A DNA stretch of 64,000 nt from Escherichia coli (GCF_002854065.1 NZ_CP024147.1); one strand, 5' to 3'. Shown: positions 3,001 to 6,000, counted from the stretch's first letter. Program-made: the numbers.

Positions 3001-6000
3001 TAAAATATTTTTAGCACAACGCTATGTGCACTGTCACCCGCTCAACAGATCGCGGTAATCGTTCATTTTTTATACTATTCAGGGATAAAAAAAGGCCCCT
3101 GTTGAAATTGCAGGGGCCTGGTACGAGCAAGCATCATATTGGGCGACATGATGCAACGGTAAAAATCATTTGGCCTGATAGCGTTCAATGATTCCTTTCA
3201 TTTCAGCAACCGCCGCCCCGTCTACGACATAACGCGAATACTCGTCCGCGTGTGCATCTGATGACATGGACAATCCTTGATTACGATAACGCATCGGTGA
3301 GGCTTGCCACGCTCCCGCGGAGCTATGGACTTCCAACACTCCGGCATCGAGGAAGTGGTGCAGGTTTTCTGCACGGACTCCTGCTCCGGCCATAATGATT
3401 GGAGCATCACGATGGGCAATAAGTTCCATAATTTTTGATAAACCTTGCAGTGCGTCTGATTTTTGCCCTGATGTCAGCACCCGGACAATGCCCAATTCCG
3501 CAAGATTATTGAGTGTATTTAGAGGGTTAGCGCACATATCAAAGGCGCGATGAAAAGTCACTGCCAGCGGACCGGCAGCAGCCATTATTTTTTCCATTCG
3601 TGGCATATCGACATTACCGTCAACATCGAGCACGCCCGTCACCAGTCCAGGAAAACCTAATTCGCGGACTGTGCGCACATCCTCAAGAATGGCGGCAAAC
3701 TCACCGTCGCTGTAGCAAAAATCACCACCGCGTGGGCGGATAATCGGATGCACAGGGATCGTCACCCGCTGGCGCACGGATTTCAGTACACCCAACGACG
3801 GCGTTAAGCCCCCCTCTTTTGGGGCTGCGCATAATTCAACTCTGTCTGCGCCGTTTTGCTGCGCCGTTAGTGCACATTCCATGCTGTAACAGCAAATTTC
3901 CAGTAATGCCATTTTTACTCCTTAATTACGCCGACTGCTCGCTGGCAACGATCTCTTCAATGGACCACGGATGAAACTTAATCGTTGTTTTGCCATCGGT
4001 GACCCCCAGCGTCGGATTCGGTAATCGCTCATGCTCACCTTTTGGCGAACTGGTTTTCACTGAGATCCCCGGTAGGCTGAGTCCTTCATCAGAAAGCAAT
4101 GCCAGCGCACGGGCATTCAGCGTTTCTGGATCACCCGGCAGAACGATTTCAATATGTTCCCAACCTTCGTGTGGGTAACGTTTTTCCCCGGGCCACGGTA
4201 GCTCCACAATAGAAAACTGCCAGTGAGCAACCTGTACCGGTTCATGCAATTTAAACAGACAAATCGGTCTGCCATTGATCATATTTTCTGACAAAAGCTC
4301 GCCGCACTGTTCAAACCCGCGACGCCAGCGTTCAGCGGTGGCGTTTTGATGGCAACGCAAGGAAATGTGATCGGCAGTCAACGGAGTGATATCCAACCCC
4401 AAACGGCGGGAAAGTTCATCTAATGCGTGGGTAAATCGCGGTAAATCCGATGCAATATCCTGCAGCTCGTCGATAGATTGCCAGTTCGCCATAATCACTC
4501 TTCGTCTTTCAGTAAAAGCGTTAATTTACCCTGTTGCCCTGTGCCAACCAACCGCTGATTTCACGCCGCTTCTGATGCAATAGTGAAAACGGCAATACGC
4601 CACGCGCACGTTGCTGACGAAAACAGCCATTTGCAGTATACTCCCGCCCTAATTTCTTTAACTGGTGCGGGCAATTTTTGCTCGCTTCATCAATGTAAGG
4701 TATTCCGGTGAATATTCAGGCTCTTCTCTCAGAAAAAGTCCGTCAGGCCATGATTGCGGCAGGCGCGCCTGCGGATTGCGAACCGCAGGTTCGTCAGTCA
4801 GCAAAAGTTCAGTTCGGCGACTATCAGGCTAACGGCATGATGGCAGTTGCTAAAAAACTGGGTATGGCACCGCGACAATTAGCAGAGCAGGTGCTGACTC
4901 ATCTGGATCTTAACGGTATCGCCAGCAAAGTTGAGATCGCCGGTCCAGGCTTTATCAACATTTTCCTTGATCCGGCATTCCTGGCTGAACATGTTCAGCA
5001 GGCGCTGGCGTCCGATCGTCTCGGTGTTGCTACGCCAGAAAAACAGACCATTGTGGTTGACTACTCTGCGCCAAACGTGGCGAAAGAGATGCACGTCGGT
5101 CACCTGCGCTCTACCATTATTGGTGACGCAGCAGTGCGTACTCTGGAGTTCCTCGGTCACAAAGTGATTCGCGCAAACCACGTCGGCGACTGGGGCACTC
5201 AGTTCGGTATGCTGATTGCATGGCTGGAAAAGCAGCAGCAGGAAAACGCCGGTGAAATGGAGCTGGCTGACCTTGAAGGTTTCTACCGCGATGCGAAAAA
5301 GCATTACGACGAAGATGAAGAGTTTGCCGAGCGTGCACGTAACTACGTGGTAAAACTGCAAAGCGGTGACGCATATTTCCGCGAGATGTGGCGCAAACTG
5401 GTCGACATCACCATGACGCAGAACCAGATCACTTACGATCGTCTCAACGTGACGCTGACCCGTGATGACGTGATGGGCGAAAGCCTCTACAACCCAATGC
5501 TGCCAGGAATTGTGGCGGATCTCAAAGCCAAAGGTCTGGCAGTAGAAAGCGAAGGGGCGACCGTCGTATTCCTTGATGAGTTTAAAAACAAGGAAGGCGA
5601 ACCGATGGGCGTGATCATTCAGAAGAAAGATGGCGGCTATCTCTACACCACCACTGATATCGCCTGTGCGAAATATCGTTATGAAACACTGCATGCCGAT
5701 CGCGTGCTGTATTACATCGACTCCCGTCAGCATCAACACCTGATGCAGGCATGGGCGATCGTCCGTAAAGCAGGCTATGTACCGGAATCCGTACCGCTGG
5801 AACACCACATGTTCGGCATGATGCTGGGTAAAGACGGCAAACCGTTCAAAACCCGCGCGGGTGGTACAGTGAAACTGGCCGATCTGCTGGATGAAGCCCT
5901 GGAACGTGCACGCCGTCTGGTGGCAGAAAAGAACCCGGATATGCCAGCCGACGAGCTGGAAAAACTGGCTAACGCGGTTGGTATTGGTGCGGTGAAATAT

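What the first reader, a model, noticed from the sequence alone, without database searches (positions are those of the whole stretch)
3086..3427. Candidate sigmaE promoter inside cutC feeding the cutC terminator: MicL
A GGAACTT -35-like element with a plausible -10 at the right spacing lies inside cutC on the coding strand, about 300 nt upstream of the cutC intrinsic terminator. That matches the known architecture of MicL (RyeF), an envelope-stress sRNA repressing lpp. The -10 match is imperfect, so confidence is modest.
Basis: partly seen in the sequence, partly recalled or inferred. Interest (0 to 1): 0.35.

Follow-up and report, generated by a model that had tools for sequence, protein, structure and literature searches.

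The report
MicL small RNA inside cutC

Summary
The observation and the interpretation both hold. On the minus strand, GGAACTT (3427-3421), a 17-nt spacer and TCCAA (3403-3399) lie inside cutC (3912-3166). They sit just upstream of a full-length match to Rfam MicL (RF02654) at 3394-3087 (369.6 bits against a gathering score of 56, E 2e-112). That match ends at the cutC terminator.

The locus is orthologous and syntenic (torY-cutC-yecM-argS) with E. coli K-12, where ncRNA micL (b4717) is annotated at the same place. From about -66 to +1 the promoter region is 100% identical to K-12, and so is the 80-nt processed form MicL-S (3166-3087). Only four substitutions occur, all in the 5' part that is removed by processing.

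MicL-S folds into the two tandem hairpins needed for RNase E processing. Its single-stranded linker pairs with lpp codons 6-10, as published (Guo et al. 2014).

The sequence is present in 5424 of 5426 complete E. coli genomes. Verdict: already known, low interest.

One side observation: the same promoter plus a MicL-S-like 3'UTR also occurs in cutC of Pantoea, Erwinia, Mixta, Dickeya, Biostraticola and Mangrovibacter. The members of these genera that I tested all fall below Rfam's threshold, and these genera are not among those named in the 2014 paper.

The parts
3166..3912 (-). cutC coding sequence (248 aa), host gene of the promoter and of the 5' 228 nt of MicL
   Evidence: ORF list. NCBIfam equivalog NF008603 CutC, 478 bits against a cut-off of 311. 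It differs from K-12 cutC at 14 of 747 nt.
3428..3457 (-). A/T-rich stretch directly upstream of the -35 (TTTATCAAAAATTAT), an UP-element-like region
   Evidence: 67% A+T against 48% for cutC overall. This places it among the 31 most A/T-rich of 717 30-nt windows in cutC. Rhodius 2006 describes an A/T-rich 30-nt region upstream of sigma-E -35 motifs. Function here is inferred.
3421..3427 (-). -35 element of the micL promoter, GGAACTT
   Evidence: Read directly; exact match to the sigma-E -35 core. Identical to K-12.
3399..3403 (-). -10 element of the micL promoter, TCCAA, 17 nt after the -35
   Evidence: 4 of 5 to TCAAA. Identical to K-12. Point mutations in the -10 and -35 of this promoter nearly abolish MicL in K-12 (Guo 2014).
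3087..3394 (-). MicL primary transcript, 308 nt (5' end at 3394 per Guo 2014 and Rfam; 3393 per RefSeq b4717)
   Evidence: Rfam RF02654 full-length match, 369.6 bits, E 2e-112. [quoted passage not shown] There are 4 substitutions against K-12, at 3336, 3254, 3228 and 3180.
3087..3166 (-). [quoted passage not shown]
   Evidence: Position taken from Guo 2014 and applied to the stop codon at 3168-3166. The sequence is 100% identical to K-12. Fold energy -28.8 kcal/mol, z -5.15.
3131..3154 (-). Stem-loop A of MicL-S (GCAUCAUGU...AUAUGAUGC)
   Evidence: MFE fold. In a cross-genus alignment 90% of cells are paired and 3 pairs show compensatory changes. Tandem 3' stem-loops direct RNase E cleavage (Updegrove et al.).
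3117..3131 (-). Single-stranded linker carrying the lpp seed (published core is MicL-S +38 to +49, window 3129-3118)
   Evidence: The predicted duplex of MicL-S nt 36-50 with lpp coding nt 15-31 is -18.0 kcal/mol and includes 7 consecutive Watson-Crick pairs, GUACCAG with CUGGUAC. GUACC is invariant in 31 cross-genus sequences. Compensatory mutagenesis is published.
3087..3119 (-). cutC/MicL intrinsic terminator: 9-bp hairpin with a 9-nt loop, then a 7-U tail (the Hfq-binding type of 3' end)
   Evidence: Fold. In the alignment 98% of cells are paired and 5 pairs show compensatory changes.

Best explanation
The region is the micL (ryeF) gene of an Escherichia coli strain.

Under envelope stress or in stationary phase, sigma-E RNA polymerase starts transcription at a promoter embedded in cutC codons (-35 GGAACTT at 3427-3421, -10 TCCAA at 3403-3399). 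It makes a 308-nt RNA (3394-3087) that ends at the cutC terminator. [quoted passage not shown] With Hfq, the single-stranded linker between the hairpins pairs with codons 6-10 of lpp mRNA. This blocks translation and lowers Lpp, the most abundant outer-membrane lipoprotein, which relieves envelope load and feeds back on sigma-E.

Shown here: sequence identity, position, synteny, fold, seed complementarity and conservation. Taken from published K-12 experiments and inferred for this strain: sigma-E dependence, processing, Hfq binding and repression.
For: - Full-length Rfam MicL match at 369.6 bits against a gathering score of 56; it is the only Rfam match in the first 10 kb.
- Gene order torY-cutC-yecM-argS is the same as in K-12, where ncRNA micL b4717 is annotated at the same relative position.
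- 395 of 401 bases are identical to K-12 over 3060-3460, with no difference in the 66 nt upstream of the start or in MicL-S.
- The sigma-E consensus pattern is unique in the window, and its spacing lies within the published ranges.
- The MicL 5' end lies 226 nt before the stop codon, and the MicL-S 5' end lies on the last stop-codon base, exactly as published.
- MicL-S folds into two hairpins, z -5.15. Covariation across genera supports both: 94.3% of cells paired, 8 pairs with double changes, 0 of 500 shuffles as good.
- The seed pairs with lpp +15 to +31 at -18 kcal/mol, matching the published +16 to +28 core.
- The lpp 5' region is at least 99% identical in 5424 of 5426 complete E. coli genomes, and the micL locus is present in 5424 of 5426.
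Against: Nothing substantive.

- The -10 is one base off consensus and the spacer is 17 rather than the preferred 16. The validated K-12 promoter has the same two features.
- The exact consensus pattern turns up by chance in 8% of shuffled windows, so the motif alone would be weak evidence.
- The duplex energy of the longer MicL-S segment (nt 13-52) with lpp is not exceptional against mononucleotide shuffles (z -1.6). Specificity therefore rests on the short seed and on published mutagenesis.
- The substitution at 3254 (A to C) breaks one closing pair of a small hairpin in Rfam's consensus for the 5' part. [quoted passage not shown]
- lpp is not in the window, so the target of this very strain was not seen.
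Confidence: 0.97

Rival explanations
1. The GGAACTT...TCCAA match is a by-product of the codons for Met-Glu-Leu...Pro-Ile in CutC. On this view there is no internal promoter, and any 3' fragment comes only from decay of the full cutC mRNA.
For: The motif lies in a conserved protein segment ([18 protein letters not shown]). An exact consensus match appears by chance in 8 of 100 shuffled windows.
Against: The motif depends on specific synonymous choices: GAA, CTT, a third-position T, and CCA. The same choices recur in cutC of more than 20 genera while the spacer between them varies freely, although that set was selected by the pattern itself. The sequence is identical to the K-12 promoter. In K-12 a -65 to +20 fragment drives sigma-E-dependent GFP, and silent -10/-35 mutations nearly abolish MicL (Guo 2014). 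MicL resists 5'-monophosphate-dependent exonuclease, so it is a primary transcript.
Confidence: 0.01
2. The locus is MicL by descent but is weakened or altered in this strain by its four substitutions relative to K-12 (3336, 3254, 3228, 3180), for example through changed stability or processing of the 308-nt precursor.
For: One substitution (3254) turns a U-A closing pair into U-C in a small hairpin of the Rfam consensus structure. Three of the four also change CutC residues: E220A, I229V and H245Y.
Against: All four lie upstream of the cleavage site. The promoter, cleavage site, both 3' hairpins and the seed are identical to K-12. The 5' sequences are reported not to affect cleavage, but this rests on a section heading of Updegrove et al. 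only. The same allele, or alleles at least 99% identical, occurs in many natural isolates: 2091 genomes at 99% or better over the 374-nt query 3087-3460.
Confidence: 0.02

Closest known systems
MicL (RyeF; Rfam RF02654; E. coli K-12 b4717), Guo et al. 2014 Genes Dev (PMC4102768)
   Same: Same gene. It has the same position inside cutC, the same neighbours, an identical promoter, an identical 80-nt MicL-S, an identical seed and terminator, and the same 308-nt length.
   Different: Four single-base differences in the 5' 228 nt, which overlap cutC codons. No architectural difference.
MicA and RybB, the other two sigma-E-dependent Hfq-binding sRNAs of E. coli
   Same: Same regulator (sigma-E, GGAACTT-type promoter) and the same logic: lowering synthesis of abundant outer-membrane proteins under envelope stress.
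   Different: MicA and RybB are free-standing intergenic genes with many targets (31 mRNAs together). MicL is embedded in a coding gene, is processed, and has one known target, lpp.
3'UTR-derived sRNAs processed by RNase E (CpxQ, and ArcZ as a processed sRNA)
   Same: The active form is the 3' end released by RNase E. It carries a terminator hairpin and binds Hfq.
   Different: MicL has its own promoter inside the upstream ORF, so it does not depend on transcription of the host mRNA. CpxQ is cut from the cpxP mRNA itself.

Membership tests
MicL sRNA (Rfam RF02654) | Sequence and structure match to the family covariance model above the curated gathering score | tested here: met
   369.6 bits against 56, model positions 1-308 of 308, E 2e-112, window 3394-3087 minus strand.
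MicL sRNA (Rfam RF02654) | [quoted passage not shown] | tested here: met
   cutC 3912-3166, yecM 4498-3926, torY 2778-1678 and argS 4708-6441 were identified by NCBIfam. This is the same order as in K-12, where micL is annotated. The terminator is at 3119-3087.
MicL sRNA (Rfam RF02654) | Sigma-E-type promoter immediately upstream of the 5' end | tested here: met
   GGAACTT-N17-TCCAA ends 4-5 nt before +1. The 66 nt upstream of +1 are identical to K-12, and the K-12 -65 to +20 fragment is sigma-E-dependent.
MicL sRNA (Rfam RF02654) | Transcription actually depends on sigma-E | not testable with these tools
   This needs expression data for this strain. It is inferred from sequence identity to the K-12 promoter.
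MicL sRNA (Rfam RF02654) | [quoted passage not shown] | tested here: met
   The distance from the stop-codon base 3166 to the end of the U-run at 3087 is 80 nt. Two hairpins are predicted and supported by covariation. The sequence is identical to K-12. The cleavage itself is not testable here.
MicL sRNA (Rfam RF02654) | Seed complementary to lpp coding nt +16 to +28 | tested here: met
   MicL-S 36-50 pairs with K-12 lpp +15 to +31 at -18 kcal/mol. lpp is not in the window, but its 5' region is at least 99% identical in 5424 of 5426 E. coli genomes.
MicL sRNA (Rfam RF02654) | Hfq binding | not testable with these tools
   Only the sequence hallmarks are visible: a terminator hairpin with a 7-U tail and a 5' U-run.
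E. coli sigma-E (RpoE) promoters, Rhodius et al. 2006 | -35 GGAACTT and -10 TCAAA cores; spacer 15-19 nt (16 preferred); -35 to +1 distance 25-28 nt (26/27 preferred); A/T-rich upstream region | tested here: met
   -35 is 7 of 7, -10 is 4 of 5, the spacer is 17 nt, the -35 to +1 distance is 26-27 nt, and the 30 nt upstream are 67% A+T.
E. coli sigma-E (RpoE) promoters, Rhodius et al. 2006 | Score above threshold under the published position weight matrices with spacer penalties | not tested
   The matrices and promoter tables are in figures or supplements that are not held as text.

The most novel reading that the evidence does not exclude
The window's locus itself offers nothing new. The most novel reading the data allow concerns the family.

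MicL may be older and more widespread than the select group of enteric bacteria and recent evolution described in 2014. An exact sigma-E promoter core inside cutC, together with a MicL-S-like 3'UTR (U-run, stem-loop A, an invariant GUACC linker and a terminator), is present in Erwiniaceae (Pantoea, Erwinia, Mixta), in Dickeya, in Biostraticola and in Mangrovibacter. Rfam's model scores the members of these genera that I tested below its threshold, so they go unannotated.

Whether these RNAs are made, and whether they pair with the lpp of their own genomes, was not tested.
Probability: 0.6. Interest if true: 0.25.

Novelty: already known. Interest (0 to 1): 0.08.

Why it matters
For this window it matters mainly as annotation. 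Standard RefSeq/PGAP records listed only cutC at this place in every non-K-12 E. coli record shown, so a functional regulator of the cell's most abundant protein goes unlabelled. Phenotypes of cutC mutations, such as copper sensitivity, can be misattributed, as Guo et al. showed for K-12.

The result also shows that the first-stage reader can recognise an intragenic sigma-E promoter from raw sequence. The possibly wider phylogenetic range is a modest extension of known biology.

Tried and rejected
1. Published sigma-E weight matrix. I looked for the matrices or promoter tables in Rhodius 2006 (PMC1312014) and Rhodius 2012 (PMC3326320). No sequences are in the text and no supplements are held. 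A consensus-pattern scan with shuffles and identity to the validated promoter were used instead.

2. Built-in promoter/terminator scan. It is a sigma-70 model, so it is silent on sigma-E. It also missed the real terminator because its loop limit is 8 nt and this loop is 9 nt. Its three terminator-like hits inside cutC are within the chance expectation.

3. Whole-molecule RNAduplex of MicL-S against lpp. It gave an unrealistically long duplex that was not better than shuffles (28 of 500), so it was rejected as uninformative. The restricted linker duplex reproduces the published seed.

4. RNAalifold on the cross-genus MicL-S alignment. It returned only the terminator. Stem-loop A was then tested explicitly and is supported.

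5. Protein-based scan of genome contigs for cutC orthologues. I considered it and decided against it because of cost. I used one cheaper DNA-pattern scan instead, which means the cross-genus set is selected on the promoter and has no denominator.

6. Fetching lpp from Pantoea, Erwinia or Dickeya to test seed/target co-variation.

7. I checked the plus strand of 3086-3427. There is no ORF of 60 aa or more and no Rfam match there.

Full report
**What is in the sequence**

On the minus strand, 3480-3040 reads ...AAAAATTATGGAACTTATTGCCCATCGTGATGCTCCAATCATTATGGCCGGAGCAGG....
- GGAACTT occupies 3427-3421.
- A 17-nt spacer follows.
- TCCAA occupies 3403-3399.
- Four or five bases later the RNA begins, at 3394 or 3393.

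All of this lies inside a 248-aa ORF at 3912-3166, which is CutC by the NCBIfam equivalog model (478 bits against a cut-off of 311). The neighbours are yecM (4498-3926), argS (4708-6441, plus strand) and the torC-like cytochrome gene torY (2778-1678). The terminator lies downstream of the cutC stop codon (TGA at 3168-3166). It is a 9-bp G+C-rich hairpin with a 9-nt loop (3119-3093), followed by seven U (3093-3087). The generic terminator scan missed it because it allows loops of at most 8 nt.

**Is it more than chance?**

The pattern GGAACTT-N15-17-TCNAA occurs once in the 64-kb window on both strands. The expectation from dinucleotide shuffles is 0.08, and 8 of 100 shuffles had a hit. The motif alone is therefore only suggestive.

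Its geometry fits the published description of sigma-E promoters (Rhodius et al. 2006, PMC1312014):
- Published spacer range is 15-19 nt with 16 preferred; here it is 17.
- Published -35 to +1 distance is 25-28 nt with 26/27 preferred; here it is 26-27.
- Long spacers go with short discriminators.
- The region upstream of the -35 is A/T-rich. Here the 30 nt upstream are 67% A+T against 48% for cutC, among the 31 richest of 717 windows in the gene.

The published weight matrices could not be obtained as text, so that particular test was not run.

**Identity**

A scan of window 1-10000 against all Rfam families gave one match: MicL (RF02654). It covers 3394-3087 on the minus strand, model positions 1-308 of 308, at 369.6 bits against a gathering score of 56, E 2e-112.

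In E. coli K-12 MG1655 the same neighbourhood (torZ-torY-micL/cutC-yecM-argS) carries the annotated ncRNA micL, b4717, overlapping the 3' part of cutC. Window 3060-3460 aligns to K-12 without gaps, with 395 of 401 identical bases. Two of the six differences lie downstream of the terminator. The other four (3336, 3254, 3228, 3180) lie in the 5' 228 nt of MicL, where they are also cutC codon changes: one synonymous, plus E220A, I229V and H245Y. The 66 nt upstream of the start and the last 80 nt are identical to K-12.

The sequence is present at 95% identity or better in 5424 of 5426 complete E. coli genomes. It is 100% identical over 3060-3460 to strain CUWW06.

**Agreement with the published anatomy**

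Guo et al. 2014 (PMC4102768) report the following:
[quoted passage not shown] - a sigma-E-dependent minimal promoter (-65 to +20), only slightly weaker than the micA and rybB promoters;
- near-abolition of the RNA by silent -10/-35 mutations.

In the window, 3168 + 226 = 3394 and 3166 - 3087 + 1 = 80, so both ends fall exactly where expected. RefSeq places the K-12 5' end one base further in (307 nt, equivalent to window 3393, an A). Either choice keeps the promoter geometry in the preferred range.

**Structure and mechanism**

MicL-S (3166-3087) folds into two hairpins separated by a single-stranded linker: stem-loop A at 3154-3131 and the terminator at 3119-3093. The energy is -28.8 kcal/mol, z -5.15, with 0 of 200 shuffles as stable. 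The full 308-nt RNA is also more stable than shuffles (z -3.7).

Updegrove et al. (bioRxiv 10.1101/341578) showed that these tandem 3' stem-loops set the position and efficiency of RNase E cleavage. A section heading in that preprint states that 5' sequences do not affect cleavage; I did not read that section.

The linker contains GUACCAG, the exact complement of lpp coding nt +16 to +22 (CUGGUAC). The predicted duplex of MicL-S 36-50 with lpp +15 to +31 is -18 kcal/mol. This matches the published core of +38 to +49 with +16 to +28, which was verified by compensatory mutations. Duplex predictions over longer segments are not better than shuffles, so specificity rests on the short seed.

lpp is not in the window. 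Its 5' region is at least 99% identical in 5424 of 5426 E. coli genomes, so the target is almost certainly intact in this strain.

**Related sequences elsewhere**

One DNA-pattern scan of species-representative genomes used the promoter core plus the conserved downstream GG..GG.G..GG.G. It returned 86 hits. Of these, 84 lie in cutC orthologues in the same frame, and two (L021, L024) are chance hits.

Wherever enough downstream DNA was held, the cutC 3'UTR shows the MicL-S layout: a U-run, then (A/G)CCG, stem-loop A, a UUGC..GUACCA linker and a terminator.

An alignment of 31 distinct sequences has GUACC invariant. Counting pairs for the two-hairpin structure gave:
- 94.3% of cells paired;
- 8 pairs with changes on both sides;
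- a covariation score of 0.391 against 0.212 in shuffles (0 of 500 as high);
- 33-53% of cells paired when the partners were slid by 1-3 columns.

Of 20 loci tested against Rfam, the eight that pass the MicL gathering score are all Enterobacteriaceae: Salmonella, Citrobacter, Kosakonia, Klebsiella, Kluyvera, Pluralibacter, Tenebrionibacter and isolate LSJC7. Mangrovibacter, Pantoea septica and Dickeya oryzae give full-length matches of only 27-30 bits, E 1e-4 to 8e-4. The tested Mixta, Erwinia and Biostraticola loci, and Pantoea persica, give no MicL match at E 0.01 or better.

[quoted passage not shown] A text search found no paper linking MicL to Erwinia, Pantoea or Dickeya beyond citations. 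The family therefore seems wider than described.

Three caveats apply. My set was selected on the promoter pattern, it has no denominator, and the lpp genes of those genomes were not examined.

**Verdict**

The feature is the already-known micL gene in an E. coli strain close to K-12. Its promoter, processing site, seed and terminator are all identical to the experimentally characterised ones. Sigma-E dependence, RNase E processing, Hfq binding and Lpp repression are inferred for this strain from that identity and were not shown here. Interest is low. The only mildly new point is the apparent presence of MicL-like loci in Erwiniaceae, Dickeya, Biostraticola and Mangrovibacter.

Noticed in passing
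L007, L010, L012, L020, L025, L026, L032, L036, L041, L044, L047, L052, L057, L058, L061, L070, L076, L079, L082 (cutC 3' ends): cutC of Pantoea, Erwinia, Mixta, Dickeya, Biostraticola and Mangrovibacter carries the exact sigma-E promoter core. It also has a MicL-S-like 3'UTR with an invariant GUACC linker and covarying hairpins. The members tested against Rfam's MicL model fall below its gathering score: 27-30 bits in three (L007, L036, L025), no MicL match at E 0.01 or better in five (L010, L012, L044, L052, L061), and three more (L020, L026, L028) fail at the gathering threshold. These genera are not among those named in Guo et al. 2014.
   Followed up: partly
window 3087-3394; records under hits H1-H35: In every non-K-12 RefSeq/PGAP record shown, only 'cutC' is listed under the match. 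The ncRNA micL feature appears in the K-12 MG1655 record. MicL is therefore routinely left unannotated in E. coli genomes.
   Followed up: partly
window 3393/3394: There is a one-base disagreement on the MicL 5' end. Guo 2014 and Rfam give 308 nt (U at 3394). RefSeq b4717 gives 307 nt (A at 3393).
   Followed up: no
window 3166-3912: CutC differs from K-12 at five residues: Y132N, A143V, E220A, I229V and H245Y. The last three are caused by substitutions that also lie in the MicL 5' part. The change at 3254 turns a U-A pair of a small Rfam-consensus hairpin into U-C.
   Followed up: partly
window 23143-23150: The window is colinear with K-12 MG1655 (98-99% identity) but lacks the IS1H element that K-12 MG1655 carries upstream of flhD. 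The two alignment blocks join here.
   Followed up: partly
window 46260-47161: The central part of fliC has no nucleotide match to K-12 fliC, while both flanks match at about 98%. This suggests a different flagellin (H antigen) type.
   Followed up: no
window 54598-58144: An IS1 copy (55545-56318, 98.7% identical to K-12 IS1H, opposite orientation) sits between two stretches (54598-55434 at 82% and 56912-58144 at 92.6%). Both stretches match the same K-12 yedL-yedN region, so the yedN-like sequence is locally duplicated or rearranged. The rest of the window, to 64000, was not compared.
   Followed up: no
window 17387-17464 (+) and 35691-35989 (-): Other Rfam matches above the gathering score: C0465 RNA (111.6 bits) in the tar-cheW intergenic region, where the K-12 record shows no feature; and three tRNA genes corresponding to the K-12 leuZ-cysT-glyW cluster.
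   Followed up: no
E. coli genome collection: 2 of 5426 complete E. coli genomes have no match to the micL locus, and two matches lie on records labelled as plasmids. The lpp 5' region likewise has three plasmid-borne places, one of them on a 4.7-kb plasmid.
   Followed up: no
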